Part shown: in pieces, positions 1,608 through 46,892 of the stretch
Position numbering within the stretch: position 1 is the first letter of the stretch
Layout: every line of letters begins with the position of its first letter
Source: Candidatus Aenigmatarchaeota archaeon
Lineage (GTDB): Archaea; EX4484-52
Direction: 5' to 3'
DNA length: 64,000 bases
Assembly (NCBI GenBank): GCA_023137195.1
Contig: JAGLPV010000015.1
Coordinates: 27,075 to 91,074, forward strand
Translations under genes and position numbers: made by a program
Notes under the pieces: generated by a model
The model's database searches: none
Seen by the model: the letters and a program-made list of their open reading frames with translations, nothing else
Told to the model about the DNA's origin: nothing

Positions 1608-3134
1608 TTAATTTAAGAGGTTCTCTATCTTTCTTTTCAATTCCTTGATGGTTTTTTCCAGCTCGTTTTTATTTGCTGTTGACATATCCTTATTTTCAAC
1701 CACAATAGGAACAGGTTTTGGTTGTTTTCCAATAACAGTTCTTTTGTTTTTTTCAACTGTGGTCAAATCAACACCAGGCATTTGTTCTTTTATCTCTTTT
1801 ATTAATTTTTCAAACATAGCTATTGATTTTTTATCATCTTTGCGATACTTGTAAAGCAACTCACTTATTTGTATTGTCAACCCATATATATATTTTATTG
1901 ATTCCCTGGATGGTTTTGTTATCTGGCTTGTCGTATATAAAATCAGATTCAAGAAAGCGCATACAGTTTCTGTATCTCTGTGTTCTATTACAAAAGAAGC
2001 CATTTTCCGGAAATCTCTGTTGAGCAGATAACTTTGGATAAATGAATTAATGATATTTTCATCTACATATAATTTTAACTCCTCACACATACGAATATCC
2101 TTTATTTCTCCATAAAACAATTTTTTGGTTATTCCTTTTTTTCCCGGAGTGTGTTCGCTATCAGAAAAATCAATAATTTTCCATAGCCCTTTATTGGTCA
2201 GCATAATATTTTTAGAATTCAAATCACGATGAATAAAATTACTATTATGCATAACTGAGATGATTTTACCCAGTTCTGCAATAAGATTAGCTTTTATTGT
2301 TTTTTCTTTCAGAATAACTTCTAATGTCTTGCCTTCTATCTTTTCCATTATAATATGGTTATTTTTATCATACCTATATATTCTGGGGCTGTTTTTTTTA
2401 AGAATTTTTTTAGCTTTAAGTATTTTGCCGTACTCTATCGCACTAACAATCTTTAATATTTTATTCATAAGGGGGTTCAGAATAGGTGCATCAGAAAGCT
2501 TTTTGGTGGACTTTACAGCAAACTCCATCGCAGATCCCTTTTTTTCAACAGAAACGCCATCTACGTATCCTCTACGCCCACTTCCTATTCTTTCTTTAGT
2601 AATTATAGTTTCATCTGGTTTTTTTATAATCTCATCAATTGTACTATTTCCGGACTTTTCGTCATTTTTTATTATCGCGTCAACCGCCTCTGTTGTCGGA
2701 ACAACAGTTTCATAAAAATCATTTATCAAACGCGGATTTGTAGTTTCTCCCTTCTTTTTTTCATCTCGGTATTCTTTGCTTTCTCTTATGTTGTGAATGG
2801 CATCTCCATCGTTTTCCAAAAAATCAGATAATTCTCCCTCTGCTTTTTCTTTCTCAACTCGTTGTTTTTCCTCTTTGTTTTTTAACATCCCTGAAATTAT
2901 TGGCAATTTATGCAAAATTCCTTTTAATGTAGGACGTCCTTTTGCTAATTTCCGAAGTGCTTTTTTTTCAGCAATTTCAGCATTTTCTATTGACTCGTCA
3001 AGTACTTCTATTATTGGAGATTCTGAAGGCAGTCTGTATTTTAGTCTTTTAAGTTGTTTTTTTAGTTTCTCAACTTTTTTGAGTTTTTCAAATAGTTCTT
3101 TATCCTGCATATTATTATTCTCTCCTGCTGGCAT
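1608..3134 (-). CDS. Atypical protein kinase (Bud32/RIO-like core) with coiled-coil extensions; paralog of 5192..6466
   Basis: Gly-loop IGSGRRGYV, Lys motif FAVKS, hinge IMEKIEG, catalytic loop HRDLNSKNIML, metal-binding WKIIDFSDS. Lys/Glu-rich coiled-coil N and C termini. ATG at 3134; an alternative ATG lies at 3110. Confidence 0.7.
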   Translation of the reverse strand: MPAGENNNMQDKELFEKLKKVEKLKKQLKRLKYRLPSESPIIEVLDESIENAEIAEKKALRKLAKGRPTLKGILHKLPIISGMLKNKEEKQRVEKEKAEGELSDFLENDGDAIHNIRESKEYRDEKKKGETTNPRLINDFYETVVPTTEAVDAIIKNDEKSGNSTIDEIIKKPDETIITKERIGSGRRGYVDGVSVEKKGSAMEFAVKSTKKLSDAPILNPLMNKILKIVSAIEYGKILKAKKILKKNSPRIYRYDKNNHIIMEKIEGKTLEVILKEKTIKANLIAELGKIISVMHNSNFIHRDLNSKNIMLTNKGLWKIIDFSDSEHTPGKKGITKKLFYGEIKDIRMCEELKLYVDENIINSFIQSYLLNRDFRKMASFVIEHRDTETVCAFLNLILYTTSQITKPSRESIKYIYGLTIQISELLYKYRKDDKKSIAMFEKLIKEIKEQMPGVDLTTVEKNKRTVIGKQPKPVPIVVENKDMSTANKNELEKTIKELKRKIENLLN

Positions 3135-5184
3135 TATTCAACTCTCCAGTTGCTTTGTTTAATTCGTCCACGATTCCTAATACCTCTTGTTCGCGTGTCA
3201 GTTTATCTATTTTGTTTTTTAAGTTCTTCTTCTTTTCAACCCAATCCTTTCGTTCTCTGGGCGACATTGAAGGAGAGTATTGACTATTCAATATCCTGAG
3301 CTCTTCTTTTGCATTATCCAACTTCCATTTGGTTAATAGTGGTTTTCCTTGTGGTTTTGTTTCTGGTGGTTTTTCGGCTTTTCTTTGCACTCTTAGTTTT
3401 TCTATTATAGCTGCTTCATAAAATTCCTTTATCAACTGGTAATTATTTTTATGTTCTTCTGCAATTCTCCGGTATTTTGGATGATTTAACATATAATGAA
3501 GTCGCTTTCTGTGTTCTAAATATTCTCTCTCTTCAGCAGGGTTTTTCCATTTTTTATTTGATGCATTGTGCGGTTCTTTTATCATTTCAGGATTTTCATG
3601 AATCTTTGCCGTTTCATGATTTTGTGCGTGTTGTTGATAGGTTATATCTTTACATAGATAATTGTCGTTTATACAGATATTTCCTTCGGGTCTCATCAAT
3701 TTAAGAATGGTGTTGTAGAATTCTGTTAAATCAATTTTCGGGGGAGTTGTTTTGGCTGAAGCCAAAGGTATGTTTTTATAATCCCTGTCTTTAATCTCGA
3801 ATTCCTTCGAGTAGATATAAAAAGAAGGCAGTTTATTGCTGGATATGCCTTCGTATTTTGAATAATACTGCTGTATTGTCGGGTCATAATAGGCATCATC
3901 TATCTTTAACAAAATATGGCTCCATCCACTTTCAGTATCCCTAACCACCCTCTTATCCCCTATATGTAAAATACATCTGTTTTCTTTACCATCATCCAAA
4001 GATATTGTTTTTTCCAGACTATTTTGTTTCTTCCCCTTCACATATATTTTTTCAACATTATTTTTACAAATACAGCAAATAACAATAACTCTTGCATTTA
4101 CTAGTTTGATTCTTTTCGGTTCTATAAATTCCAGACACTTTTCTATCATTTCATATGTCGCCAATCCACAGGCATTGAAATTGTATTTTTCAAAAGCTGT
4201 TTTTTTAATCTCTTCGAAAATTTTTTTAATCCTCTCTGGTTGATTCTCTTTTCTTTCAAACAGGTTATTTTCTTCAATAAGTCCCTTTTTCAGATAAATT
4301 ATTTTTTCCAGGATGTTTTCATACTTCTTTTTTTCAAGAGGATTTTTTTTAATATTTTCTTCAAGTGCAGATATTTTTTGGTTCAAAACAAGTTCTATCA
4401 AACCTATTTTGCTGTTTTTTTTTATTCTCACGAGTTCTTTTACTGCTTTTATTTTATCATCTGCGCTTTTTGAATCGACATAATCAATGACTATCGAAAG
4501 TATCTTTTGCTTATTTGATTTCTCTTCATCTTGCGGGTTTTCTTTTTTTATGCCGTATTTGTTTTGCAATTCTCTTATCTGGCTGTCGCCGAATCCCATT
4601 ATTTCCAGTAGAGGACAAACATACTCTATCTTGATTTTCTTTCTTTCTACTAACGTCATTATGTTGTCCAAAGCGGGTTTTCCGATATTTGAAAGTGTGG
4701 TTAAAGCCTTGTTGCGCACATTATAGTTTTTGTCTTCGAGTTCTTTTATTAGGATATACATTGTTGTCAATGTTTTTTTAATTGTTTCTCCCTTTATTTT
4801 TTTTATTTTATCTCGTGCCCCACCTATCAATTTACTAATCTCTTCTACTTCTTCTTTACTTAATTCTACCTTCTCTCCATCATCTTCAAATTCCATTGAA
4901 CTTGTCCCTGACTTAAAATTATTTATGTGATATTTCCACATCAATCGACGGAATGCACCACGATATTTTTTTCCGGCATCCTCAAAAAACTCATCTGGTT
5001 TTTCTATAGAAAACAGGTCACAAACATTGTCTAATGTTGCCTCTTTCTTGTCTCGAAAATGGATCTTGTCGATAACAAAATACTTTATGTCTGCACCTAA
5101 AATCAGGAAAGCCTCATTTGCAGTCATCTTGCCAGAGTTAATTTTAGTGTCTCTTAAAAATTTTGTGTGGTTTGTTTTTACCAT
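3115..5184 (-). CDS. HEAT-like repeat plus transglutaminase-like (Cys-His-Asp) domain protein; paralog of 6482..7879
   Basis: NACGLATYEMIEKCLE ... RIKLVNARVIV ... SHILLKIDDAYYDPTIQ matches the order and spacing of the transglutaminase-like cysteine peptidase core. There is an upstream HEAT-like segment (NVRNKALTTLSNIGKPALDNIM). The track ORF starts at TTG 5211; the first ATG is at 5184. Confidence 0.55.
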   Translation of the reverse strand: MVKTNHTKFLRDTKINSGKMTANEAFLILGADIKYFVIDKIHFRDKKEATLDNVCDLFSIEKPDEFFEDAGKKYRGAFRRLMWKYHINNFKSGTSSMEFEDDGEKVELSKEEVEEISKLIGGARDKIKKIKGETIKKTLTTMYILIKELEDKNYNVRNKALTTLSNIGKPALDNIMTLVERKKIKIEYVCPLLEIMGFGDSQIRELQNKYGIKKENPQDEEKSNKQKILSIVIDYVDSKSADDKIKAVKELVRIKKNSKIGLIELVLNQKISALEENIKKNPLEKKKYENILEKIIYLKKGLIEENNLFERKENQPERIKKIFEEIKKTAFEKYNFNACGLATYEMIEKCLEFIEPKRIKLVNARVIVICCICKNNVEKIYVKGKKQNSLEKTISLDDGKENRCILHIGDKRVVRDTESGWSHILLKIDDAYYDPTIQQYYSKYEGISSNKLPSFYIYSKEFEIKDRDYKNIPLASAKTTPPKIDLTEFYNTILKLMRPEGNICINDNYLCKDITYQQHAQNHETAKIHENPEMIKEPHNASNKKWKNPAEEREYLEHRKRLHYMLNHPKYRRIAEEHKNNYQLIKEFYEAAIIEKLRVQRKAEKPPETKPQGKPLLTKWKLDNAKEELRILNSQYSPSMSPRERKDWVEKKKNLKNKIDKLTREQEVLGIVDELNKATGELNNASRRE

Positions 5185-5191
5185 ATTGTTT

Positions 5192-6466
5192 TTATTTATT
5201 TTCTCCAACAATTTGATTTATTAACTTTATTATTTCTTCTTTCGTTTGATTCATTTGATTTTCACATATACCGTTTTTGTGTTTTAAGTTCTCAAATAAA
5301 GATAAATCAATATTTGGATTTTTAAGAAGACGTTCTTTAAGCTTCATTCGAAGAATATGATGTTTAAGTTTTCTTAATTCCTTTGCTTCTTGAACTTCGC
5401 ATTTATCCAAACGCTTTTCCTGTGTTAAATTTTCAATTTTGAGCAAAAACATAGAAAGATATTTATTTACTTCATTGGAAGGAAGATTAATATTTTCTAC
5501 GATATATTTTATAAATTCAAATAAACCATATCCTGCTTCATAATCAATTGGTCTTTGATTATATATTCCATCAATATAAGTTATTAAATTTCTATTAATT
5601 AAATAATTTTGAAAGAAAATATTTTTTATTTTTTTATCAGGACACTTTTTCATTACTTTATATACGTCTCGTCCTTGACGATGGATTTTACCTCTAAAAT
5701 CAAGATTTTTTTCTAACTCAATAAGTTTTTCTAACTTAATGTTTTTTTCATTACTACTATTTGGATTCCTGCCCCCAAAATCAATTATTTTCCATATTCC
5801 CTGTTCATCTAAAATAACATTATTGGAATGTAAATCTCCGTGAATGAAATCCTGATTGTGCATGACTGCAATTATTTTTCCTAACCGAGTAATTAGTTCT
5901 GGTTTTTCTAATAATATTTCTAATGGAATATCCCTTAGCTGAAATCCTTCAATTGGTTCCATAAGCAATTTTTGGGTCATTTCATTATTATAATACTCAT
6001 AAACTTTAGGTATATTATTTGGATGAATGCATCCAAAAATACGCATTCTTTTATATTCTTCCTCTTTTATTTCTTTTCCCATCAAAGGTATCTTTACAGC
6101 AATATTATGGCTATGTCCTTCTTTATCTTCAGCAGAAATACCAATCACTTCCCCTCTGCTTCCAGTCCCCAATTTGTTCGGTGGCTTAATAATATATTCT
6201 CCCCATTCTATATCCTCTTGGTCATTTTTCTGATTTAATGGTATTTCTCCGTTTTTTATTCCATAAACCAATTCTGTTATTTTTGAACCGCCCTGTAGAA
6301 AGTTTCCAAGCCACGTACCTTGCTCTTCTGTTTTTTTAGTCTTGTTTTCCTTTTTTTCTTTCAATAGTTTAAAAGTTTCAAAGACCCTTTCTTTAAATTC
6401 ATTTTCACTGTCTGGCAGGCTTTCAGTCAATTCAATAATTTTCATTTCTATTTCTTCCTTCCTCAT
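5192..6466 (-). CDS. Atypical protein kinase (Bud32/RIO-like core); paralog of 1608..3134
   Basis: LGTGSRGEV, IAVKI, LMEPIEG, IHGDLHSNNVIL, WKIIDFGG, in the same order as the other kinase. It shares C-terminal region motifs with it (NYLINRN versus SYLLNRD). Confidence 0.7.
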   Translation of the reverse strand: MRKEEIEMKIIELTESLPDSENEFKERVFETFKLLKEKKENKTKKTEEQGTWLGNFLQGGSKITELVYGIKNGEIPLNQKNDQEDIEWGEYIIKPPNKLGTGSRGEVIGISAEDKEGHSHNIAVKIPLMGKEIKEEEYKRMRIFGCIHPNNIPKVYEYYNNEMTQKLLMEPIEGFQLRDIPLEILLEKPELITRLGKIIAVMHNQDFIHGDLHSNNVILDEQGIWKIIDFGGRNPNSSNEKNIKLEKLIELEKNLDFRGKIHRQGRDVYKVMKKCPDKKIKNIFFQNYLINRNLITYIDGIYNQRPIDYEAGYGLFEFIKYIVENINLPSNEVNKYLSMFLLKIENLTQEKRLDKCEVQEAKELRKLKHHILRMKLKERLLKNPNIDLSLFENLKHKNGICENQMNQTKEEIIKLINQIVGENK

Positions 6467-6481
6467 ATTATTCTTGATGTT

Positions 6482-7879
6482 TTAATCGTCTGCTCCTTTA
6501 TATTTTTTAATAAGTTTAATTATTTCTTCTTCTGTTTTTTTTATTTCTTTTGGAGACATTGCCGCATCTACTGCTCTCTGATTTTCTTCATCCTGTTCGT
6601 CTATCTTTTTTTTATTATCTATTGCCCATTCATACCTATTTTTTACCAGTTTCTCATTACTTTCTATGGGCTTTACTTTTTCTTCATACGCAGATGGATT
6701 TATCCTCCTTAAATAATCCAATCGTTCAAGATGTTCTGGATTTATAGATGAATCTTCAAAATTACTCAAATCTCTGCATACATAATTGTCGTTTACAATA
6801 ATATTTGAATTTTCTTTTTTCAACAGAAATACAACATCATTGCGCAACAGTATTTTCCTTTTTTCTTCTGATGTATTTTCTGTTAATGCAACCGGCGCAT
6901 GTTCGCGATCTTTTTTTCTGATTTGATCTTCTACTGCATGGACATAATAATAAGGCAATTTATGTTCGTATATTCCTCTTGCTTTCGAATAATAGCGCTG
7001 TATTGTAGGATCATAATACGTGTCATCTATTTTCAGGAGGCTATGGTTGCGACCCATATCCTCATCAACAAGTATTTTTTCATCTCTAACAGACAAGATG
7101 TCTTTCCCCCTGTGGATTATCTCATCCATAGAAGACGTTGTCTTTTCCGGGTTGTCTATTTTTATTGTTTTTTTCTCTCCATCTCTTCTTCTTATTAGGT
7201 AAACTGCCTTAACCGAGTCTGTACAAATAAGTTTAGAAACAATTACTCTCGCATTGACAAATTTTATTCTTTTTGAATTTATGCCTTTTTCCAGGCATCT
7301 ATTTATCATTTCCTCTATTATTTCATTGCAGGGAATATCAATTTTCGATGCCTGTTTTTGAATATCCAATAATATTACGCTTATTTTTCCTTTATTCCCA
7401 CTGTTTCTCCCTGAACTGTTTTCGGCATTTGTTGGAATTGGTGGATTTTTTCCAGTAAGACTTTTCGAAGATGGTCTGAATTTTCCAGATAAGATATCCC
7501 CAATATTGGGACTTTTTTTCTCCAACTCCCGCGCCGCATCAGGATCTTTTTCTTTTAGTTCATTTAGTGAATGCTTAATTTTCTTATTCAATTCATTTAA
7601 TTTGTTAACATCTTTGGCTTTTTCCTTTTGTATGTTCTTAATATATTCATTTAATTGTTCTACTAGTTCTAGATGGTCTTTGAGAAATAGTTTTTTAACA
7701 GCAGGATATTCATTTATAATATGCACTGCATACATCGGATCTTTTTTTACAAGCGTTGCTGCCAGTCCAGAATCGTTTTTAAAAGCAGAGAGAATTGCTT
7801 TTTCTGCTGCCGGTTTGTCATCTGTCTTTAACGCCCCATTCTTTAACGCCAATTCTTCTATCATTTGCAATGAGTTCAT
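6482..7879 (-). CDS. Transglutaminase-like (Cys-His-Asp) domain protein with coiled-coil N-terminus
   Basis: IPCNEIIEEMINRCLE ... RIKFVNARVIV ... NHSLLKIDDTYYDPTIQRYYSK ... IVNDNYVCRDL is collinear with the C-terminal half of 3115..5184. Confidence 0.55.
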   Translation of the reverse strand: MNSLQMIEELALKNGALKTDDKPAAEKAILSAFKNDSGLAATLVKKDPMYAVHIINEYPAVKKLFLKDHLELVEQLNEYIKNIQKEKAKDVNKLNELNKKIKHSLNELKEKDPDAARELEKKSPNIGDILSGKFRPSSKSLTGKNPPIPTNAENSSGRNSGNKGKISVILLDIQKQASKIDIPCNEIIEEMINRCLEKGINSKRIKFVNARVIVSKLICTDSVKAVYLIRRRDGEKKTIKIDNPEKTTSSMDEIIHRGKDILSVRDEKILVDEDMGRNHSLLKIDDTYYDPTIQRYYSKARGIYEHKLPYYYVHAVEDQIRKKDREHAPVALTENTSEEKRKILLRNDVVFLLKKENSNIIVNDNYVCRDLSNFEDSSINPEHLERLDYLRRINPSAYEEKVKPIESNEKLVKNRYEWAIDNKKKIDEQDEENQRAVDAAMSPKEIKKTEEEIIKLIKKYKGADD

Positions 7880-7902
7880 AGTATTTTAATTACTGATTAA
7901 AT

Positions 7903-8006
7903 ATATCGCGGCACAAGTAATGCATGTATGTGGCGTGATATACTAGCAAAATACATAAATACTATATAAATACGGATTATCCTTTGTATTATTTATGTGT
8001 TTTGCT
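7903..8006 (+). repeat. Two-hairpin intergenic element, family 1, copy a
   Basis: Hairpin 1 pairs atatcgcggcac (7903-7914) with gtggcgtgatat (7930-7941). Hairpin 2 pairs agcaaaatacataaata (7945-7961) with tatttatgtgttttgct (7990-8006). A second copy lies at 42325..42512. Confidence 0.6.
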
Positions 8007-8190
8007 ATAATATATTTCTTAATTGTAAATAAATTATATATAATTATACAAAAATTATTTATACTCTCTATCCTAATTGAAACACTCTCACATCCTGATT
8101 TCCGACAGCACCATCAAACATAAAAATATAAACTACTTTTCTCGCATTTCATTTAACTCATCGAATTTTCAGAAAACATTATCTTTTCTT

Positions 8191-8261
8191 GTGCATTCCG
8201 TGCGTCATTCAACAAAGTTGAATGTGCAAAAAAGCAGAGCTTTTTTCGCATCCGGTGGATT
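8191..8261. repeat. Intergenic hairpin element, family 2, copy a
   Basis: Hairpins cattcaac-aaa-gttgaatg (8206-8224) and aaaaaagc-aga-gctttttt (8228-8246), ending in cgcatccggtggatt. An inverted homologous copy lies at 30561..30642. Confidence 0.5.
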
Positions 8262-8315
8262 AAAATAAGTTCCTCTTTTTATTCACATTTAAAAATATAA
8301 ATTATATAATCTTGT

Positions 8316-9696: not shown

Positions 9697-10848
9697 TTAG
9701 AGCAATCCAAGCAGGTACGGCAGTGCGATGAATGTAGCGATAGAACTTCCGATATTGGCAAATAAGACAACCAAAAGAATTCTTGAAATCCTGTTTTTCC
9801 AAAAACCACCCACACTTGTTAGTTGACTGAGTTTCTCAAAGTCCTTGACCTTTGGTTCTCTTAGTCTTGCCTCGACATATCCTCCAACAATGCCTGCAGC
9901 TATTGTAGGATTGAGGGACGTGAACGGAGCGGCAAAGAAGACAGCTATTATTGTGAGTGGATGTGGGAGGCTGAAAGATACTGCCAATGCACTAAGCACA
10001 CCATTGATAATAAACCAGTACCATATCATCGAGAGAGCAACATCTGTTGATTTGCCGAAAGCAAAACCAGCCAATATTATTCCAATGACTATTGCAGGAA
10101 TCAAATAATTTATTGTCTTTAATAATTTCGATTTTTTTGGGATTTTTTCAAGCGGTTTTATGTCCTGTTTTTTTTTCAGGTGTTTTTTTATGCCTTTTAT
10201 ATGCCCTGCCCCGACTACTGCAACTATTTTTTTGCCTTTTGAGTCAAGTATTTTGTTTGCGATGTAGATATCTCTTTCATCAATTAGAACTTTTTTTGCA
10301 TCAGGCATTTGTTTCCCTAGTTCCTCTACCATGTGACTCATCATGTCTTTTGCTTTCATTTCCTCAATTGTTTTTTCATCCACTTCTTCTGAAATGATGA
10401 GTCCTTCCATAAGCCCGTAGAATAATTTTGCTTTTTCAGTAAATTTTGCTTTTGACCATGCTCTCTTTAGGGTAATCTGGATGTCCCTGTCGAGCAGGGC
10501 AATTTTTGCCTTTTGCTTTTTTGCGGCATTGATTGCCTCAATCATCTCTGCCCCGGGTATCACTTCAACATTTGCGCCCATTCTTTTTTGAAATATTCCA
10601 AGAAGCAGGTTTGTCAAAAATAAGTATGTCTTGCCTTCTTTAATGATTTGCGTGATTTTTGTGTTCTGCCATTTCTTCTTGTCTGTCAATGTCTTGTACC
10701 TGTTTTCGCACAGTTCTACTCCAACAACATCCGGCTTTTCCTTTTTAATTGTTTCATTGACGAGTTCTACGCTTTTTTTTGAGATATGGGCAGTCCCAAC
10801 CAGGATTATTTCCTTGTCCTTTAGTTTTATCCTGTCGATATTATTCAT
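9697..10848 (-). CDS. TraB/PrgY-family protein with C-terminal membrane domain
   Basis: N-terminal ILVGTAHISKKSVELV...PDVVGVELCENR is the TraB family signature. The C-terminal part is hydrophobic with several TM segments. Confidence 0.8.
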   Translation of the reverse strand: MNNIDRIKLKDKEIILVGTAHISKKSVELVNETIKKEKPDVVGVELCENRYKTLTDKKKWQNTKITQIIKEGKTYLFLTNLLLGIFQKRMGANVEVIPGAEMIEAINAAKKQKAKIALLDRDIQITLKRAWSKAKFTEKAKLFYGLMEGLIISEEVDEKTIEEMKAKDMMSHMVEELGKQMPDAKKVLIDERDIYIANKILDSKGKKIVAVVGAGHIKGIKKHLKKKQDIKPLEKIPKKSKLLKTINYLIPAIVIGIILAGFAFGKSTDVALSMIWYWFIINGVLSALAVSFSLPHPLTIIAVFFAAPFTSLNPTIAAGIVGGYVEARLREPKVKDFEKLSQLTSVGGFWKNRISRILLVVLFANIGSSIATFIALPYLLGLL

Positions 10849-10879
10849 ATTCTTTTAAATCTAATTTGTTTAAAAATAT

Positions 10880-11866
10880 ATGCAAATAAAATGTCTGGGG
10901 ATTGAGTCTACTGCACATACATTCGGAGCAGGCGTGGTGTCTTTTAACGGCGAGGATAAATTCGAGATTTTATCGAGTCAAAAGGCCTGCTACTTTGAAA
11001 AAGAAGGTATCCGACCTACCCTGGCAGCCCAGCACCATACGCAAAAAGCGCCGGAGACAATAAAGGTTGCATTGAAAGAAGCAGACATGAAAATGACAGA
11101 TATAGATATAATTGCTTATTCAATCGGTCCGGGAATGACCCCGTGCCTGATTGTCGGTTCAACAGCAGCCAAGATTCTGGCATTAAAGCACAAAAAGCCA
11201 TTGGTGGCTGTGAATCATTGTGTCGCCCACATAGATATTGCAAAAGAAATGACCGAATGCAAAGAGGCATTTGTCGCTGTTTTTGTCTCAGGAGGAAATT
11301 CCCAGATACTCTCGAAAACAGAAGGCAGATACAGGATTTTCGGGGAGACGCAGGATATTGCTGTTGGAAATGCAATAGACAAGTTTGCAAGAAGTGTTGA
11401 TTTAGGATTTCCCGGCGGTCCGGTAGTGGAAAAATTAGCAAAAGACGGCAAATACATAGGACTGCCTTATTCAGTAAAAGGTTGCGATTTCTCATTCGCC
11501 GGCATTGAGACCCAGGCAGAAAGGACATTAAAGACCAATAGAATTGAGGATGTATGCTATTCTATGCAGGAAGTTATGTTCTCTGCTATTTGCGAGAGTG
11601 CAGAGCGGGTTCTGGGACATTTAAAACTAAAGACTCTTGTTTTATGCGGCGGCGTTGCAAGAAACAAGACACTACAGGAAAAATTAAAGATAATGACCTC
11701 TGAGCGGGATGCAAAAGTGTTTTGTGTCCCTGGTGAATATGCGGGCGACAATGGGGCGATGATTGCAATTACCGGGATTAAAAATTATCTAAAGAAAATA
11801 AATTGTTTTGATAAAAAAGATATTCGCAAAACAGCAGTAATTCCAAAAATAAGGATTGACCAGTGA
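10880..11866 (+). CDS. kae1: tRNA N6-adenosine threonylcarbamoyltransferase Kae1 (stand-alone, not fused to Bud32)
   Basis: CLGIESTAHTFGAGVV, VNHCVAHI (His pair), SGGNSQ and GDNGAMIA motifs. 328 aa. Confidence 0.9.
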   Translation: MQIKCLGIESTAHTFGAGVVSFNGEDKFEILSSQKACYFEKEGIRPTLAAQHHTQKAPETIKVALKEADMKMTDIDIIAYSIGPGMTPCLIVGSTAAKILALKHKKPLVAVNHCVAHIDIAKEMTECKEAFVAVFVSGGNSQILSKTEGRYRIFGETQDIAVGNAIDKFARSVDLGFPGGPVVEKLAKDGKYIGLPYSVKGCDFSFAGIETQAERTLKTNRIEDVCYSMQEVMFSAICESAERVLGHLKLKTLVLCGGVARNKTLQEKLKIMTSERDAKVFCVPGEYAGDNGAMIAITGIKNYLKKINCFDKKDIRKTAVIPKIRIDQ

Positions 11867-12308: not shown

Positions 12309-13331
12309 TTATCCATTTAGGTAATCTTTCCTTCTTGCAAATAGAGACAAAAACATTAGTCCTACAGATAAAAACATTACCGGGAACTCAGGAATTATCG
12401 TTAAGGGAAGAAAATCTATATTGTCTCCTCCACTTATATTGTGGGGTATTTCGCCAAATCCATCGCCGTCTGTGTCAGGATATGGATAATCCGAGAAGTA
12501 ATTTCCTCCAATGTATGGTCCCCCGATTATGTTTGGTCCTGTTGAGTTTGTTGTGTTCCAGGAATTGCTTCCTGTATCTATTGCATTGCATGTATTGTTG
12601 GCAAAGATATTGTTGAATATAAGATTAGAGTTGCAGTTTGATGTAAGGTAAACCCCTTTGAATGCATTATATGATACCTTGTTGTCATTCACTTCATTAT
12701 TGTCTGAAGAACTCTGGAATTTTATCCCCTGCATATTGTTGTAGATGGTGTTGTATTCTATGTCATTGTTATTGCTTTCTCCAACAAAAATACCGTCAAG
12801 AGTATTGTGGTGTATTTCATTATTATAGATGTGTCCTTGGTTTGTTTGCCAGAACTTGATGCCGTATCCAAACAGGTGATAATATATTTCATTGTCATAT
12901 ATTTTGGTATTTGTACTTCCAGTGAATAAAACGCCCGTCATTTTATTGTGGTATATTTCGTTATTGTGTATGGCTGCGTTGTTTGTATTATGGAATTCAA
13001 TAGCATAATCCCACATTTTGATTTCGCAGTTCTTTACAGTACTGTTTTCCATCTCAGAATATACAGCTGCGCTTATTACTGTGGTTAATTTGCCTTGTAT
13101 AGAATAATTGGCGGGGTCATAGAGCATATATCCTTTGCAGTCAAAGGTTACATTGTCTGCCTGTATATCTATGCATTTTCTTATAGGTCCTGTGATTATA
13201 TCTCCAGTCATGTAATATTCTCCAGGAGTAGTTATTGTTGTACAGCCGGTAATCGCTGTAGCAGCACTTGCCGTCTGCAAAAGCATAGAACTGATTATCA
13301 AAATAGTTAGAATAAATATTGTTTTTTTCAT
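12309..13331 (-). CDS. Secreted right-handed beta-helix (NosD/PbH1-like) protein with PEF-CTERM-like tail, paralog 1
   Basis: Signal peptide MKKTIFILTILIISSMLLQTASA. Repetitive N-rich beta-helix turns (NNEIYHN.., YNNEIHHN..). GPNIIGGPYIGGNYFSDY..DTDGDGFGE, then PEFPVMFLSVGLMFLSLFARRK. The track start 13340 is GTG; the ATG is at 13331. Confidence 0.75.
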   Translation of the reverse strand: MKKTIFILTILIISSMLLQTASAATAITGCTTITTPGEYYMTGDIITGPIRKCIDIQADNVTFDCKGYMLYDPANYSIQGKLTTVISAAVYSEMENSTVKNCEIKMWDYAIEFHNTNNAAIHNNEIYHNKMTGVLFTGSTNTKIYDNEIYYHLFGYGIKFWQTNQGHIYNNEIHHNTLDGIFVGESNNNDIEYNTIYNNMQGIKFQSSSDNNEVNDNKVSYNAFKGVYLTSNCNSNLIFNNIFANNTCNAIDTGSNSWNTTNSTGPNIIGGPYIGGNYFSDYPYPDTDGDGFGEIPHNISGGDNIDFLPLTIIPEFPVMFLSVGLMFLSLFARRKDYLNG

Positions 13332-13381
13332 AGATACCACTTATTGTTACCATTATTAGGTAGTAAATTATAAAAAGATAA

Positions 13382-14584
13382 TCATTTGAAGGAACAGCAT
13401 CCATTTGCTCTTCTTGCAAACAAAGACAAAAACACAATCCCGAATGATAAAAATATTGTCGGAACTTCAGGAATCAGAGGAAGATTATCCTGGCTGTATC
13501 CTCCCTCAATATCATAATGTGTTTCTCCGAAGCCGTCTCCATCTGTATCATTGCCGGGATAGTCCGAAAAGTAATTTCCTCCAATGTATGGTCCCCCGAT
13601 TATGTTTGGTCCGCTCTGGTTTACAGCATTCCATGTATTGGCACTCAGGTACTCTTTAGTATTGTTTACATTGTCAAAGTAATTGTTGTAAATCAGGTTG
13701 TTATTTGATCTATCTATGTGTATGCCATTCCACCCGTTGTTTTGCACGATATTGCTTCTTATTGTATTATCTTCACTTTCCTGTTTGACATATATTCCTT
13801 TCTTTATGTTATTTTTGACGATATTGCTTTTCACAAGATTGTTGGTGCAATAATTTTGCAGTATGATTCCGTATTGGTTTTCTGATGCGTTGTTGTCTAT
13901 CACGCTGTTTTGATTGTTTGAAGAAAATAAATATATTCCATTGTAATTGTCATACACTGTATTGTTTGATACTATGTTGTGAGTGGATAAGGTCAGGTAA
14001 ATGCCCTCGTCGTTATCATATACATCATTAGCCGATATGTTGTTGTTGCCGCAGTAAGACATATATATGCCTTTTTCGTTCAATAGCATAGTATTGTCTT
14101 TCACTATGCAGTTTTGTGAATATCCCATGCATATACCTTTGTTGTTTGATTCAACATTGTTGTTTTTTACCATTAGATTATCTGAATGCCATGTGTGGAT
14201 TCCAAAGTAGTTGTCTGAAACATTGTTGTCTGTCAATGTATTGTTGTCTGCGTTATTTAGGTATATTCCATATCTCCAGTCAGTGACTACGCAGTTTTTT
14301 ATTGTGATGTTTGTATCTGTTGCAGATGTTCTGTCAATGAGTATTCCTTTTGTCGTATAACTGTCGACCCCGTCAATTATATTGTTCTGGCAGTCCAGGA
14401 CGACGTTATTTGCTGTTATGTCAATACATACTGTATTTCCGGAATTAATTATATTACTGCTTAAGTAATATTCCCCGGGAGAAGTTATTGTTGTGCATGA
14501 AGTAATCGCTGTAGCAGCACTTGCTGTCTGCAAAAGCATAGAACTGATTATCAAAACAGTCAGAATAAATATTGTTTTTTTCAT
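13382..14584 (-). CDS. Secreted beta-helix protein with PEx-CTERM-like tail, paralog 2
   Basis: Near-identical signal peptide and first beta-helix turn, a longer repeat core, and the same GPNIIGGPYIGGNYFSDYPGNDTDGDGFGE block. The tail is PEVPTIFLSFGIVFLSLFARR. Confidence 0.75.
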   Translation of the reverse strand: MKKTIFILTVLIISSMLLQTASAATAITSCTTITSPGEYYLSSNIINSGNTVCIDITANNVVLDCQNNIIDGVDSYTTKGILIDRTSATDTNITIKNCVVTDWRYGIYLNNADNNTLTDNNVSDNYFGIHTWHSDNLMVKNNNVESNNKGICMGYSQNCIVKDNTMLLNEKGIYMSYCGNNNISANDVYDNDEGIYLTLSTHNIVSNNTVYDNYNGIYLFSSNNQNSVIDNNASENQYGIILQNYCTNNLVKSNIVKNNIKKGIYVKQESEDNTIRSNIVQNNGWNGIHIDRSNNNLIYNNYFDNVNNTKEYLSANTWNAVNQSGPNIIGGPYIGGNYFSDYPGNDTDGDGFGETHYDIEGGYSQDNLPLIPEVPTIFLSFGIVFLSLFARRANGCCSFK

Positions 14585-14650
14585 TGTATTACTCCTTATT
14601 GTTACTATTATAGGGTGGTAAATTATAAAAAGATGAGGGTATTGAAGCCA

Positions 14651-15505
14651 TTAAATAAGATTTCTTCTTGCAAACAGGGACAAAAACATTAGTCCTACGG
14701 ATAAAAACATTGCCGGGAATTCGGGAATAACCAGCGGAAGATAATCCCTGTTTTGTCCGCCAATATTATCATAAGGTGTTTCTCCAAATCCATCTCCGTT
14801 TTCGTCAACTCCATCATAGTCAGAGTAGTAATTTCCCCCGATATAAGGACCGCCTATTATATTTGGTCCTGTTGAGTTTGTTGTGTTCCAGAAGTTGTTT
14901 CCCTTTCCTGCATCCTTCCCGTCATGGTTATTGCCGGCAAGATAGTTGTTGTAGATTAGGTTTGAAAAGCAATTGCTTTCAACATAAATCCCGTTAATTT
15001 TATTGTAGGTTGCAATATTGTTTTTTATCTCATTTTCATTGGAATTATCGTTAAGTTTTATTCCATACTGGTTGTAGCTTGCGTTGTTGTCCGACAGGAC
15101 GTTGTATTTGCTTTCTTTCAAAAGAATGCCGCTTGCCTTATTTGAATATGGTTCATTGTTGTGGATTGTTCCGTTGTTTGCATTGTAAAAGACGATGCCG
15201 TTATTCCAGTCGCTGACAATGCAGTTTTTTATAGTAGTCATATTCTGGTTTGAATATATGCCATAAGTATTTGATTTGCCTGTTCCGTCAATAACATTAT
15301 CTCCACAGTCCAGAGTAATATTTTTTGCCGTTATTTCAATGCATTTTCCTGCACCAGAGTTATCAATTATGCTCTCATTCAAATAATAATGCTCGTTTTC
15401 TACATTGAGTGTTTGGCATTTGTTGATATTTTCCAAAGCATCAACATTTTGCAAAAGCAAAAGACTCATCATTAAGACACATGCGAGAAACGTCTTTTTA
15501 TTCAT
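14651..15505 (-). CDS. Secreted beta-helix protein with PEF-CTERM-like tail, paralog 3
   Basis: Divergent signal peptide (MNKKTFLACVLMMSLLLLQNVDA) but the same C-terminal block and PEFPAMFLSVGLMFLSLFARR. Its ATG overlaps the stop of the upstream paralog (ATGA at 15502-15505). Confidence 0.75.
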   Translation of the reverse strand: MNKKTFLACVLMMSLLLLQNVDALENINKCQTLNVENEHYYLNESIIDNSGAGKCIEITAKNITLDCGDNVIDGTGKSNTYGIYSNQNMTTIKNCIVSDWNNGIVFYNANNGTIHNNEPYSNKASGILLKESKYNVLSDNNASYNQYGIKLNDNSNENEIKNNIATYNKINGIYVESNCFSNLIYNNYLAGNNHDGKDAGKGNNFWNTTNSTGPNIIGGPYIGGNYYSDYDGVDENGDGFGETPYDNIGGQNRDYLPLVIPEFPAMFLSVGLMFLSLFARRNLI

Positions 15506-16500
15506 AATAAACCATTTTTTCTTCTTACAAACAGAGACAAAAATATTAGTCCTACTGATAAAAACATTACAGGGAACTCGGGAATTACCAGAGGAAGATA
15601 ATCGCTGTTACATCCCCATTTAATTTTATATGGTGTTTCTCCAAAACCATCTCCATTTGTATCATTGCCGGTATAATCCGAGAAATAATTTCCCCCGATG
15701 TATGGTCCGCCAATTATGTTTGGTCCTGTCTGGTTTGTGGTATTCCATGAGTTTTTCCCATAGCTACGGTCAGAAGCACTATATGTATTGTTGGCCACAT
15801 AGTTGTTGAATATCCTGTTACTTATCGAATCACAGGATATGTGAATCCCGTTCAAAGCATTAAAAGAGATATTATTATTCCTGATTTCATTTTTGTCGGA
15901 ATCTGTTTGAACTGATATTCCATTTTCGTTATTGTGGATTGTGTTGTTTTTTACATTGTTCTGGTTGCTCCGGGATAAATAAATGCCGCTTCCTTCGTTA
16001 GAATGCATTTCATTGTCATATATATTTCCCCAATATGTCTTCCATAAATCAAGACCATGAGCTATTGTAGACCCGTGTATTTCATTATCATGTATATTCG
16101 GATATGTGCATTCCACCAGACGAATACCTGACATTTTGCAATAAAGTATATCATTATAGCTTATATTTGCGTTCTCTGTTCCACCTAAAGTAATCCCGGA
16201 AGACCATCCCCGGATAACGCAATTGGTGATAGTAACATCATCTTTTTCGGAAAATATCCCTGTGGTGGTGGAAAAGAACCCATTATAACGAATCATGTGA
16301 CCTTCGCAGTTTAATGTAACATTGTCTGCATTTATTTCAATGCATTTTTGCACACAGTTTGTGGTTATATCTCCTGACAGGTAATATTCTCCCGGAGAAG
16401 TTATTTTAGTACATGAAGTAATTGCTGTGGCGGCACTTGCCGTCTGCAAAAGCATAGAACTGATTATCATAACAGTCATAACAAATATTGTTTTTTTCAT
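15502..16500 (-). CDS. Secreted beta-helix protein with PEF-CTERM-like tail, paralog 4
   Basis: MKKTIFVMTVMIISSMLLQTASAATAITSC..., a beta-helix core, GPNIIGGPYIGGNYFSDYTGNDTNGDGFGE and PEFPVMFLSVGLIFLSLFVRRK. Confidence 0.75.
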   Translation of the reverse strand: MKKTIFVMTVMIISSMLLQTASAATAITSCTKITSPGEYYLSGDITTNCVQKCIEINADNVTLNCEGHMIRYNGFFSTTTGIFSEKDDVTITNCVIRGWSSGITLGGTENANISYNDILYCKMSGIRLVECTYPNIHDNEIHGSTIAHGLDLWKTYWGNIYDNEMHSNEGSGIYLSRSNQNNVKNNTIHNNENGISVQTDSDKNEIRNNNISFNALNGIHISCDSISNRIFNNYVANNTYSASDRSYGKNSWNTTNQTGPNIIGGPYIGGNYFSDYTGNDTNGDGFGETPYKIKWGCNSDYLPLVIPEFPVMFLSVGLIFLSLFVRRKNGLL

Positions 16501-20294: not shown

Positions 20295-20930
20295 ATGAGC
20301 ATCGACAAAATCTATTCAATACTTGAATCTGAATTCAAAAAATACCCGATGCCTGTTGTTGATTTGATTACAATTCAGACAAAAGACCCGTATAAAATTC
20401 TGGTTGCAACAATACTTTCTGCAAGGACCAAGGACAAGACCACGAAAGAAGCGGCAGAAAGATTATTTAAACAGGCAGATTCTCTTGTATCTCTGTCAAA
20501 ATTATCTATAGAGAAAATAGAGGAATTAATATATCCTGTTGGATTTTACAAGAATAAATCAGAATATCTCCATGAACTGCCAAAAGAAATACAAATGAGA
20601 TTCTCGGGAGTAATCCCGTCCACAATTGATAATCTGGTAAGACTTCCTGGTGTTGGTAGAAAAACTGCCAACTTAGTTGTTTCAATGGCATTTAACAAGC
20701 CAGGGATATGCGTTGATGTTCATGTTCACAGGATTTGCAACCGTTTAGGGTATGTGAAGACGAATAAACCTTATGATACAGAGATGGCTTTGAGAAAAAA
20801 GCTTCCGAAAAAATACTGGACTTATTTTAATTCGTATCTGGTATCATTTGGACAGCATCTGTGCAGACCGGTTGGTCCGAAGTGTATTGAATGTCCGATA
20901 AAGGAGTATTGCGAGAAAAGATTATTTTAA
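20295..20930 (+). CDS. nth: Endonuclease III (HhH-GPD DNA glycosylase with 4Fe-4S cluster)
   Basis: HhH motif LPGVGRKTANLV and C-terminal CRPVGPKCIECPIKEYC (Cx6Cx2Cx5C). Confidence 0.9.
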   Translation: MSIDKIYSILESEFKKYPMPVVDLITIQTKDPYKILVATILSARTKDKTTKEAAERLFKQADSLVSLSKLSIEKIEELIYPVGFYKNKSEYLHELPKEIQMRFSGVIPSTIDNLVRLPGVGRKTANLVVSMAFNKPGICVDVHVHRICNRLGYVKTNKPYDTEMALRKKLPKKYWTYFNSYLVSFGQHLCRPVGPKCIECPIKEYCEKRLF

Positions 20931-46774: not shown

Positions 46775-46892
46775 TCCCGTCGCCCGGACTTGAACCGGGA
46801 ACAACTCGGTTACTGCTAACCAAATGCCTGCTGGCAAAAAGCGCAATGCACTCTTCTACAGCCGAGCACTCTACCAATTGAGTTACAACGGG
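46775..46892 (-). tRNA. tRNA-Tyr (anticodon GUA) with a 45-nt canonical-position intron
   Basis: Exon 1 (46892-46856) is CCCGTTG TA ACTC AATTGGTA GAGT G CTCGG CTGTAG. The intron is 46855-46811. Exon 2 (46810-46775) is A CCGAG TTGTT CCCGG TTCAAGT CCGGG CGACGGG A. The C1-G72 pair is the archaeal/eukaryal Tyr identity element. Confidence 0.85.

What the first reader, a model, noticed from the sequence alone, without database searches (positions are those of the whole stretch)
1608..7879. Tandemly duplicated two-gene module: transglutaminase-like Cys-His-Asp protein plus Bud32/RIO-like kinase
Read 7879 to 1608 on the minus strand, the order is TGL-like (465 aa), kinase (424 aa), HEAT+TGL-like (~689 aa), kinase (508 aa). 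Both gene types are clear paralog pairs. The TGL pair shares RIKFVNARVIV/RIKLVNARVIV, HSLLKIDDTYYDPTIQRYYSK/HILLKIDDAYYDPTIQQYYSK and IVNDNYVCRDL/CINDNYLCKDI. The kinase pair shares AVMHNQDFIHGDLHSNNVIL/SVMHNSNFIHRDLNSKNIML and WKIIDF. A Cys at a helix start (IPCNEII / NACGLAT), then a His, then the Asp of YYDPT reproduces the order of the transglutaminase-like thiol peptidase triad. Gene spacing is tight, from about -20 to +15 nt depending on start choice. All four proteins carry long Lys/Glu coiled coils and none has a signal peptide. The first pair share a near-terminal EEIIKLI motif. I cannot name a known system built from an obligate kinase/TGL pair. It could be a signalling, conflict or host-interaction module.
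Basis: partly seen in the sequence, partly recalled or inferred. Interest (0 to 1): 0.75.

Follow-up and report, generated by a model that had tools for sequence, protein, structure and literature searches.

The report
Paired kinase and orphan-protein operon
An uncultivated DPANN archaeon (Aenigmarchaeota) carries a four-gene operon made of two copies of [quoted passage not shown]; the module is real and undescribed, but the "transglutaminase-like" label for the orphan protein could not be confirmed by any test.

Summary
Four minus-strand genes (T1-K1-T2-K2, window 7879-1608) are tightly packed. T1/T2 and K1/K2 are clear paralogue pairs (33% identity; E 5e-38 and 1e-29). K1 and K2 pass Pfam's protein-kinase threshold and keep all catalytic motifs, but the match stops at the DFG motif. 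Bud32 is the best named model, well below its cut-off.

The T proteins are true orphans. A profile search of 1.84 billion representative proteins found only their own two clusters. Pfam, NCBIfam, PHROGs, PADLOC, PDB sequences, GTDB genomes, JGI metagenomes, IMG/VR, phages and plasmids gave nothing.

Two AlphaFold runs failed (pLDDT about 37). hhalign against real transglutaminase-like, C39 and LRAT-like sequences gave probabilities of 0.1-0.2%. The Cys, His and Asp are invariant in all four known T sequences, but their spacing fits no reference family.

Each of the four T genes found, across three loci, is directly followed by a K gene; one locus is from another organism (T + a two-kinase fusion + a third kinase). 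A Guaymas DPANN genome pairs a K kinase with an unrelated 1222-aa protein.

T1, K1 and these partners share a C-terminal motif (TEEEIIKLI). One strain shows a mosaic patch in T1.

Verdict: a real, lineage-restricted, diversifying kinase-partner module; the partner's fold and chemistry are unknown.

The parts
6482..7879 (-). T1: orphan partner protein, 465 aa (NCBI MCK5039921.1, annotated hypothetical).
   Evidence: ORF. No family hit. NCBI name.
6764..7399 (-). T1 conserved core (aa 161-372). It holds invariant C184, C195, C219, H279, D290 (the YYDPT block) and C368 (the NDNYxC block).
   Evidence: Alignments A2 and A4. Paralogy shown.
7170..7700 (-). Strain-variable mosaic patch inside T1 (aa 67-240). 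It has 125 nt differences from a co-occurring strain whose surrounding DNA is otherwise identical for several kb.
   Evidence: dS 0.36, dN 0.21, dN/dS 0.57.
5192..6466 (-). K1: minimal protein kinase, 424 aa (NCBI MCK5039920.1, annotated protein kinase).
   Evidence: Pkinase 44.6 bits. arch_bud32 47 bits, below its cut-off.
5414..6199 (-). K1 kinase unit (aa 90-351). It contains the G-loop, the AVK lysine, the alpha-C glutamate, IHGDLHSNN and IDFG, followed by a family-specific helical domain with YLINRN.
   Evidence: Alignment A5. PDB profile hits cover only the N-lobe through DFG.
3115..5211 (-). T2: orphan partner protein, 698 aa (689 aa from the ATG at 5184). It has a long helical N-terminal region that may contain HEAT repeats.
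   Evidence: HEAT_2 hit at E = 0.053, below threshold.
3640..4236 (-). T2 conserved core (aa 326-524).
   Evidence: Alignment A4. 65% identical to the T3 core on L005.
1608..3134 (-). K2: minimal protein kinase, 508 aa (500 aa from the ATG at 3110).
   Evidence: Pkinase 52.6 bits. arch_bud32 57.1 bits, below its cut-off.
1845..2615 (-). K2 kinase unit (aa 174-430), with IHRDLNSKN, IDFS and YLLNRDF.
   Evidence: Alignment A5.
6509..6535 (-). C-terminal motif TEEEIIKLI of T1, ending 8 residues before the stop codon.
   Evidence: It is the best local match between T1 and the Guaymas 1222-aa partner protein (E = 0.013).
5219..5245 (-). C-terminal motif TKEEIIKLI of K1, ending 8 residues before the stop codon.
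7880..8315 (.). AT-rich 436-nt divergent intergenic region between T1 and the CCA-adding enzyme gene. It is the presumed promoter region of the operon.
   Evidence: Sequence. No structured RNA: fold z-score -0.06 and no credible Rfam hit. Identical in the second strain.

Best explanation
This is a four-gene operon in a Candidatus Aenigmarchaeota (DPANN) genome. It arose by an old tandem duplication of a unit of about 3.1 kb, 'partner protein T + kinase K'.

**K (largely shown).** K is a catalytically intact, minimal Bud32/RIO/KdoK-type protein kinase. It has the N-lobe, the catalytic loop and the DFG motif, but no activation segment or canonical C-lobe. It carries its own N-terminal helix and a C-terminal helical domain.

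**T (properties shown, chemistry inferred).** T is a cytoplasmic orphan protein. Its conserved alpha/beta core has invariant Cys, His and Asp residues. It is flanked by helical or HEAT-like regions at the N-terminus and coiled-coil regions at the C-terminus.

**Inferred mechanism.**
- Each T is made together with its downstream K, and the two form a complex through their charged helical ends.
- The shared C-terminal helix (T-E-E-E-I-I-K-L-I) serves as a docking element and possibly as a phospho-acceptor site.
- K phosphorylates T or a common target, and so controls or cooperates with a thiol-dependent activity of the T core (peptidase, transamidase or deamidase on a papain-like scaffold).

The narrow distribution, the changing copy number and architecture, and the strain-level mosaicism suggest a fast-evolving interaction or conflict function, not housekeeping.

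**Shown:** gene structure, paralogy, kinase identity and motif integrity, orphan status of T, T-K adjacency, the shared motif and the strain mosaic.
**Inferred:** complex formation, phosphorylation of T, thiol catalysis and biological role.
For: - **Operon and duplication:**
- **Kinase:** Pkinase above its gathering score. Bud32 is the best NCBIfam model. The catalytic residues are invariant in K1, K2 and K3a and are also present in the Guaymas K. PDB hits stop at DFG.
- **T conserved core:** invariant C184, H279, D290 and C368 across T1, T2, the T1 strain variant and T3. These residues are kept even inside a patch that differs at 39% of its residues between strains.
- **Local secondary structure:** the low-confidence models put a helix starting at Cys184 and a beta-hairpin carrying the His, with the Asp just after it.
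- **Adjacency:** T is followed by K in the window (twice), on L001 and on L005.
- **Shared C-terminal motif:**
- **Diversification:** T-KK-K architecture on L005. A different partner in the Guaymas genome. A mosaic patch with dN/dS 0.57 within an otherwise identical background.
- **Organism:**
Against: - No statistical or structural evidence supports any fold for T.
- The His-to-Asp spacing of 11 and the Cys-to-His spacing of 83-95 match none of the reference families measured.
- Two different cysteines (C184 and C368) could be the nucleophile, and four invariant cysteines could equally be structural.
- No interaction, phosphorylation or expression data exist.
- dN/dS in the variable patch is below 1.
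- The locus sits among housekeeping genes in conserved synteny, and no mobile-element or defence genes are adjacent.
- Only four T sequences exist, so 'invariant' is weak evidence.
Confidence: 0.4

Rival explanations
1. T is not an enzyme. It is a regulatory or scaffold subunit, or the dedicated substrate, of the kinase, much as Cgi121 and Kae1 serve Bud32 or cyclins serve CDKs. The invariant Cys and His residues are structural, for example metal-binding.
For: - Four invariant Cys plus one His, with no detectable peptidase homology.
- Minimal Bud32/RIO-type kinases typically work inside complexes (established knowledge of KEOPS and RIO).
- In the Guaymas genome the partner slot is filled by an unrelated protein that shares only the C-terminal motif. 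This suggests the motif, not the T core, is what the kinase needs.
Against: - There are no CxxC or CxxH pairs typical of zinc sites.
- The most conserved block (HxLLKIDDxYYDPTIQxYY) looks like an active-site hairpin more than a structural site.
- The Guaymas partner itself carries enzyme-like domains: PI3/PI4-kinase-like and methyltransferase-like, both below threshold.
Confidence: 0.3
2. The module is an antiviral or abortive-infection defence system, or another conflict system, in which the kinase acts as sensor or effector.
For: - Kinase-domain hits to the PADLOC families PD-T4-6, mad6, Stk2 and MkoA.
- Strain mosaicism and variable architecture.
- GC content is slightly lower than the surroundings, 0.29-0.33 against about 0.35.
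Against: - The PADLOC hits cover only the generic kinase domain, with scores no better than Pfam Pkinase.
- T has no PADLOC or PHROG hit.
- There are no neighbouring defence or mobile genes, and the housekeeping synteny is conserved.
- Nothing was found in IMG/VR, phage or plasmid collections.
Confidence: 0.12
3. K1 and K2 are divergent Bud32 paralogues that act with the nearby stand-alone Kae1 (window 10880-11866) in KEOPS-type tRNA t6A modification. On this reading the T proteins are lineage-specific KEOPS accessory subunits.
For: - arch_bud32 is the best NCBIfam model for both kinases.
- M. jannaschii Bud32 is among the top PDB hits.
- A Kae1 gene without a fused Bud32 lies 3 kb upstream, and a CCA-adding enzyme gene is the immediate divergent neighbour.
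Against: - The scores are 47 and 57 bits against a cut-off of 125, and cover only part of the model.
- The K proteins are twice the size of Bud32, with unrelated N- and C-terminal domains.
- They are not adjacent to Kae1 and are not on its strand.
- The Guaymas K is not next to Kae1.
- Two or three copies per locus is unlike a housekeeping KEOPS subunit.
Confidence: 0.05

Closest known systems
Bud32 / RIO / Kdo-kinase branch of the protein-kinase-like superfamily (minimal kinases)
   Same: - N-lobe with a G-loop, the VAIK lysine and the alpha-C glutamate.
- A non-RD catalytic loop, [FI]IHGDLxxxN[IV].
- IDFG directly after the catalytic loop, with no activation segment or APE motif.
- These kinases work with obligate partners.
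- Sources; family properties from established knowledge.
   Different: - About 420-510 aa, with a conserved N-terminal helix (LLGxF...LVDA) and a C-terminal helical domain of about 100 aa (YL[IL]NR[ND]F). Neither is matched by any model.
- Below the Bud32 cut-off.
- No RIO winged helix was detected.
- Occurs in two or three tandem or fused copies.
Transglutaminase-like thiol peptidases (Pfam Transglut_core; Makarova, Aravind and Koonin 1999, cited from memory)
   Same: - The order Cys ... His ... Asp.
- The Cys lies at the start of a predicted helix.
- A 'DPT' after the His-bearing hairpin.
- T2 and T3 have C-x16-P-K-R where TGL has C-x16-P-A-R.
- These are direct readings.
   Different: - No profile, profile-profile or structural support.
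- Cys to His is 83-95 in T against 31-58 in TGL. His to Asp is 11 against 15-23.
- The His block is HxLLKI, not HxWxE.
Other papain-fold arrangements: C39 bacteriocin-processing peptidases, and permuted LRAT/PLAAT (NlpC/P60-like) enzymes
   Same: - C39: CGLAxxxMI in T2 resembles CG(A/L)AxLxMI, and Cys to His in C39 is 74-78.
- PLAAT3: His23, His35 and Cys113 give spacings of +12 and +90. T has His279, Asp290 and Cys368, giving +11 and +89 (and direct reading).
   Different: - hhalign probability is about 0.2% for both.
- No Pfam hit.
- C39 has His to Asp = 16.
- The 'NCEHF' motif is not present as such in T.
Kinase-containing prokaryotic defence systems (Stk2, PD-T4-6, MADS Mad6)
   Same: A Ser/Thr-type kinase domain in a small, variable gene cluster.
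   Different: - Only the generic kinase domain matches.
- The partner genes of those systems are absent, and T is unknown to PADLOC.

Membership tests
Transglutaminase-like thiol peptidase superfamily | Significant sequence-profile match to Transglut_core or a related model. | tested here: not met
   - No Pfam hit at E <= 10 for the four cores or for insert-deleted constructs.
- No hit in NCBIfam.
- hhalign against real TGL sequences: probability 0.08% with 4 sequences and 0.18% with 13.
- A crude TGL HMM does not rank the T proteins among 288 ORFs.
Transglutaminase-like thiol peptidase superfamily | An invariant catalytic Cys, His and Asp, in that order. | tested here: met
   C184, H279 and D290 are invariant in T1, T2, the T1 strain variant and T3. 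Only four sequences exist, and other invariant Cys and Asp residues are also present.
Transglutaminase-like thiol peptidase superfamily | Triad spacing typical of the family. | tested here: not met
   T has Cys to His = 83-95 and His to Asp = 11. Ten real TGL sequences have 31-58 and 15-23.
Transglutaminase-like thiol peptidase superfamily | Papain-like alpha+beta fold, with the Cys at a helix N-terminus packed against the His/Asp sheet. | tested here: inconclusive
   - The AlphaFold2 models have pLDDT 37.6 and 36.8.
- Foldseek found nothing at E <= 0.001.
- Only the local secondary structure is compatible.
Protein kinase-like superfamily (Pfam Pkinase) | Score above the Pfam gathering threshold. 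| tested here: met
   K1 scores 44.6 bits and K2 52.6 bits, against a cut-off of 31.7.
Protein kinase-like superfamily (Pfam Pkinase) | Catalytic motifs: G-loop, VAIK lysine, alpha-C glutamate, HxD...N, and the DFG aspartate. | tested here: met
   All are present in K1, K2, K3a and the Guaymas K. K3b has a 2-residue insertion in the catalytic loop.
Protein kinase-like superfamily (Pfam Pkinase) | A canonical C-lobe with an activation segment and APE motif. | tested here: not met
   Pfam and PDB alignments end at or near DFG: profile positions 5-144 of 263 (K1) and 3-151 of 263 (K2) in Pfam, and 5-161 of the K profile in the PDB search.
Bud32 (KEOPS kinase/ATPase) | TIGR03724 equivalog cut-off of 125 bits. 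| tested here: not met
   47.0 and 57.1 bits, covering only part of the model.
Bud32 (KEOPS kinase/ATPase) | Fused or adjacent to Kae1, and about 200-260 aa long. | tested here: not met
   Kae1 lies 3 kb away on the other strand, with two genes in between. The K proteins are 424-508 aa.
RIO kinases | Pfam RIO1 gathering score, and RIO-specific N-terminal elements. | tested here: inconclusive
   RIO1 scores 25.6 and 24.8 bits against a cut-off of 22, but these are weaker than the overlapping Pkinase hit from the same clan. The winged helix and flexible loop were not testable.
HEAT repeat proteins (T2 N-terminus) | Pfam HEAT model above its threshold. | tested here: not met
   HEAT_2 scores 14.2 bits against a cut-off of 27.7, E = 0.053.
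Known anti-phage kinase systems (PADLOC) | A system-specific kinase model together with its partner genes. | tested here: not met
   Only generic kinase-domain hits were found. T1 and T2 have no PADLOC hit.

The most novel reading that the evidence does not exclude
T is a previously unseen thiol-enzyme family: either a new fold or a papain-like domain diverged beyond recognition. It is obligately coupled to a Bud32-like kinase. Together with other K-linked proteins that carry the same C-terminal 'TEEEIIKLI-KKY' helix, it would form a DPANN-specific, recombining family of effector pairs. The shared C-terminal helix would be the address tag that docks different effector proteins onto the kinase, or onto a common export or host-contact machinery.
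Probability: 0.15. Interest if true: 0.7.

Novelty: new variant of a known kind. Interest (0 to 1): 0.45.

Why it matters
DPANN archaea are obligate symbionts with small genomes, and much of their lineage-specific gene content is unexplained. This locus offers a concrete, testable module:
- an apparently active minimal kinase;
- always preceded by a partner;
- present in multiple diverging copies;
- with a shared C-terminal motif that also marks an unrelated partner protein in a distant DPANN genome.

If T is a thiol enzyme controlled by phosphorylation, this would be a new type of paired protein-modification system in archaea. If T is a regulatory subunit, it extends the 'minimal kinase needs a partner' theme of Bud32 and RIO. 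Either way, it illustrates how motif-level reading can over-name an orphan domain.

Tried and rejected
1. **Word-indexed homologue searches.**
   - Full-length T1 found only itself and an 85%-identical strain variant.
   - The core alignment returned nothing at all, not even the query's own protein, so I treat that run as uninformative.
   - The K1 domain found only itself.
2. **Pattern scans with the T profile.** GTDB genomes, JGI metagenomes and IMG/VR all gave nothing.
3. **Structure prediction.** T1 core and T2 core, each with the 4-sequence alignment, gave pLDDT 37.6 and 36.8. Foldseek on the poor model gave only noise.
4. **Tests of the TGL idea with real sequences.**
   - I pulled 3isr, 6g49, 2f4m and TG2 segments from the PDB, and ten plasmid-borne TGL domains.
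   - hhalign and HMMER with these found no signal.
   - Deleting the long insert between the Cys helix and the His hairpin did not produce a Pfam hit.
5. **Alternative papain-like templates.** C39 and PLAAT3/LRAT gave no signal.
6. **Scan of viral contigs for TGL proteins,** to enlarge the reference set: nothing.
7. **Comparison with the Guaymas 1222-aa partner.** It is not T-like. The only shared element is the C-terminal motif.
8. **Regulatory RNA in the 436-nt upstream region.** Fold z-score -0.06 and no credible Rfam match.
9. **Viral or plasmid origin.** No tblastn hits.
10. **Literature.** I found no described system that pairs a TGL-like protein with a kinase.
Full report
**1. What is in the sequence**

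Window 1608-7879 holds four long minus-strand ORFs in an AT-rich stretch (GC 0.29-0.33):

| Gene | Coordinates | Length |
|---|---|---|
| T1 | 6482-7879 | 465 aa |
| K1 | 5192-6466 | 424 aa |
| T2 | 3115-5211 | 698 aa (689 aa from the ATG) |
| K2 | 1608-3134 | 508 aa (500 aa from the next ATG) |

- The junctions are +15 nt, then -20 or +7 nt, then -20 or +5 nt, depending on the start codon chosen.
- A 436-nt AT-rich spacer separates T1 from the divergent CCA-adding enzyme gene.
- K2 ends 10 nt from the convergent agmatinase gene.

So this is one operon.

T1 and T2 share 33% identity (E = 5e-38). K1 and K2 share 33% identity (E = 1e-29). A 37-nt DNA remnant over the NDNYxC block recurs 3124 nt away, which is one unit length. 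None of the four proteins has a hydrophobic segment, and Lys+Glu make up 23-26% of each.

**2. Source organism**

The contig is DAOWDG010000010.1 of GCA_030639115.1. It was assembled from South China Sea Site-F cold-seep sediment reads (PMC9357000).

Identical or near-identical proteins in NCBI nr are labelled Candidatus Aenigmarchaeota archaeon, a DPANN lineage. There T1 and T2 are 'hypothetical protein' and K1 and K2 are 'protein kinase'. The neighbours are housekeeping genes:
- agmatinase, CCA-adding enzyme, TraB-family protein, Kae1 and prefoldin;
- further along, PEP synthase, MCM and AglB.

**3. The kinases**

K1 and K2 pass Pfam Pkinase (44.6 and 52.6 bits; cut-off 31.7), but only over the first 144-151 of 263 profile positions. 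The best NCBIfam model is archaeal Bud32, at 47 and 57 bits against a cut-off of 125.

A four-unit alignment (K1, K2 and the two units of the L005 fusion) shows these conserved features:
- the G-loop, the AVK lysine and the alpha-C glutamate;
- the non-RD loop [FI]IH[GR]DLxxxN and the IDF(G/S/E) motif;
- a family-specific helix N-terminal to the kinase unit (seen in the full-length alignment);
- a C-terminal helical domain of about 100 residues with YL[IL]NR[ND]F.

The profile hits 846 PDB kinases, but only from the N-lobe to DFG. M. jannaschii Bud32 is among the best hits.

K is therefore an apparently active minimal kinase of the Bud32/RIO/KdoK architectural type. It is not a member of Bud32 proper.

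**4. The T proteins are orphans**

- Pfam, NCBIfam, PHROGs and PADLOC give no credible hit.
- A profile of the conserved core was searched against 1.84 billion representative proteins. It found only the T1 cluster and a second cluster represented by P0003. That cluster presumably also covers T2, whose core is 65% identical to it. There was also one spurious plant repeat.
- Nothing turned up in PDB sequences, GTDB representative genomes, JGI metagenomes, IMG/VR, phages or plasmids.

The core has invariant C184, C195, C219, H279, D290 and C368 (T1 numbering). Its most conserved block is HxLLKID[DE]xYYDPTI[QR]xYYxKxxGIxxxKLP.

**5. Is T transglutaminase-like?**

I could neither confirm nor refute it, and every objective test was negative or uninformative.
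- Two AlphaFold2 runs gave pLDDT 37.6 and 36.8. They agree only on local features: a helix starting at C184 and a hairpin carrying H279, with D290 just after it.
- Foldseek on such a model is noise.
- I assembled real TGL sequences from the PDB (3isr, 6g49, 2f4m, TG2) and from ten plasmid-borne genes annotated as transglutaminase family.
  - hhalign gave probabilities of 0.08% and 0.18%.
  - A TGL HMM did not rank the T proteins among 288 ORFs.
- Removing the long insert between the Cys helix and the His hairpin produced no Pfam peptidase hit at E <= 10.

By eye there are resemblances:
- T2 and T3 have C-x16-P-K-R where TGL has C-x16-P-A-R.
- T has YYDPT where TGL has xxDPT.

But the spacing does not fit:

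| Family | Cys to His | His to Asp |
|---|---|---|
| T | 83-95 | 11 |
| TGL | 31-58 | 15-23 |
| C39 | 74-78 | 16 |

The same invariant residues also fit other arrangements:
- C39-like: CGLAxxEMI in T against CGAAxLxMI in C39.
- Permuted LRAT-like: His279, +11 Asp, +89 Cys368. PLAAT3 has His23, +12 His35, +90 Cys113.

Neither has statistical support. The specific TGL label is therefore unsupported. 'Possible papain-like thiol enzyme' is the most that can be said, and a non-enzymatic reading remains open.

**6. Synteny and distribution**

Every T gene found is followed directly by a K gene:
- T1-K1 and T2-K2 in the window.
- The T1 variant followed by K on L001, a co-occurring strain.
- T3 on L005, from a different organism in the same sediments. 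There a 392-aa T is followed 2 nt later by an 820-aa protein made of two K units fused. A third K-like gene follows 9 nt after that.

T3 has a T1-like N-terminus and a T2-like core (65% identity).

Outside the cold seep, the pattern scans found one K relative. It is in a Guaymas Basin DPANN MAG labelled Ca. Nanohalarchaeota B49_G9.
- That K overlaps by 8 nt the end of an unrelated 1222-aa protein.
- The partner has sub-threshold PI3/PI4-kinase-like and methyltransferase-like regions.
- The K distribution is a lower bound, because no exhaustive search was available for K.

**7. Two additional features**

*(a) A shared C-terminal motif.*
- E[IL]IxL[IL] occurs only twice in all window ORFs of 100 aa or more: in T1 (KKTEEEIIKLIKKYKGADD) and in K1 (NQTKEEIIKLINQIVGENK). 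Both hits are 8 residues from the end.
- The L005 kinase fusion ends GEIIDLLKKYRDMNN, at the same offset.
- The best local alignment between T1 and the Guaymas 1222-aa partner is exactly this motif: SAPSKTKQTEKEIITLLEEKKYSEASD, E = 0.013.

So proteins of different families that sit in K operons share a C-terminal helix.

*(b) Strain mosaicism.* I compared the window with L001.
- The part of K1 that L001 covers, the C-terminal half of T1, the T1 N-terminus, the spacer and the CCA gene show no differences.
- T1 residues 67-240 carry 125 nucleotide differences (dS 0.36, dN 0.21, ratio 0.57). The conserved Cys helix motifs are kept.
- The variant allele shares a five-residue insertion (VKNIN) with T3, which hints at exchange among family members.
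- Assemblies from another sample break inside this locus.

**8. Interpretation**

The best-supported account is a DPANN-restricted, diversifying operon of 'partner + minimal kinase' units.

*Shown:*
- the operon and the duplication;
- the kinase fold class and its intact catalytic motifs;
- the orphan status and conserved core of T;
- strict T-to-K adjacency;
- the shared C-terminal motif;
- variable architecture and allelic mosaicism.

*Inferred:*
- T and K form a complex through their charged helical termini.
- K phosphorylates T or a common target. The Thr in KKTEEE is followed by acidic residues, which would suit an acidophilic Bud32-type kinase; this is my own knowledge and is untested.
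- The T core is a thiol enzyme.
- The role lies in symbiont-host or other conflict, not in housekeeping.

*Rivals:* T is a non-catalytic regulatory subunit or substrate; the module is an antiviral defence system; or it is a KEOPS-related function with the nearby Kae1. Their evidence is listed in the rival entries.

**9. Novelty and score**

I found no described system that pairs these two families.
- The kinase is a new subfamily of a well-known kind.
- T is an unclassifiable orphan.
- The pairing and the shared C-terminal tag are new variants on the theme of minimal kinases with obligate partners.

The distribution is very narrow: a few DPANN genomes from hydrocarbon-seep sediments. The main reasons are that the headline TGL assignment is not supported and that nothing yet ties the module to a broader question.

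Noticed in passing
window 12309-16500 (-): Four tandem paralogous genes for NosD/beta-helix proteins (about 284-400 aa). They contain internal DNA repeats about 77% identical to one another, and look like a surface-protein array.
   Followed up: partly
window 20922-22847 (-): A 641-aa protein that combines a KAP-family P-loop NTPase domain with C-terminal pentapeptide repeats.
   Followed up: no
window 24031-27015 (+), 33454-36690 (+), 50930-52390 (-): Three large ORFs (994, 1078 and 486 aa) with no Pfam hit at E <= 0.01. These are further lineage-specific orphans in the same window.
   Followed up: no
window 9800-11200: A second strain-variable stretch, about 80 differences in 1.4 kb, across the TraB-family and Kae1 genes relative to contig L001. 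The DNA beyond 11504 is 99.98% identical. On L001, Kae1 is called only as a 96-aa fragment.
   Followed up: partly
L006 1791-5459 (+): Guaymas DPANN MAG: a 1222-aa protein directly upstream of the K-family kinase, overlapping it by 8 nt.
- It has a HEAT-like N-terminal stretch.
- It has sub-threshold PI3_PI4_kinase/HipA_C-like and methyltransferase-like regions.
- It carries the same TEKEIITLLEEKKY motif near its C-terminus.

   Followed up: partly
L005 1399-3861 (+) and 3871-4203 (+): An 820-aa fusion of two K-type kinase units. The second unit has a 2-residue insertion in the catalytic loop (IHYNLDFNHGN), so it may be a pseudokinase. The start of a third K-like gene follows.
   Followed up: partly
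window 46775-46892 (-): A tRNA-Gly(GCC) that Rfam reports as 118 nt and ARAGORN as 92 nt (46775-46866). The gene is longer than a standard tRNA, so it may carry an archaeal intron or an extension.
   Followed up: no
window 10880-11866 (+): Kae1 (TsaD family) is encoded alone, without a fused or adjacent Bud32. It lies 3 kb from the two Bud32-like kinases. Whether the genome has a canonical Bud32 could not be checked.
   Followed up: partly
L001 8021-9433 (+) versus L005 218-1396 (+): The variant T1 allele shares a five-residue insertion (VKNIN) and a DDK motif with T3 of the other organism. Over the variable stretch it is 31% identical to T3, against 22% for the window allele. This suggests exchange or an old polymorphism within the family.
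   Followed up: partly
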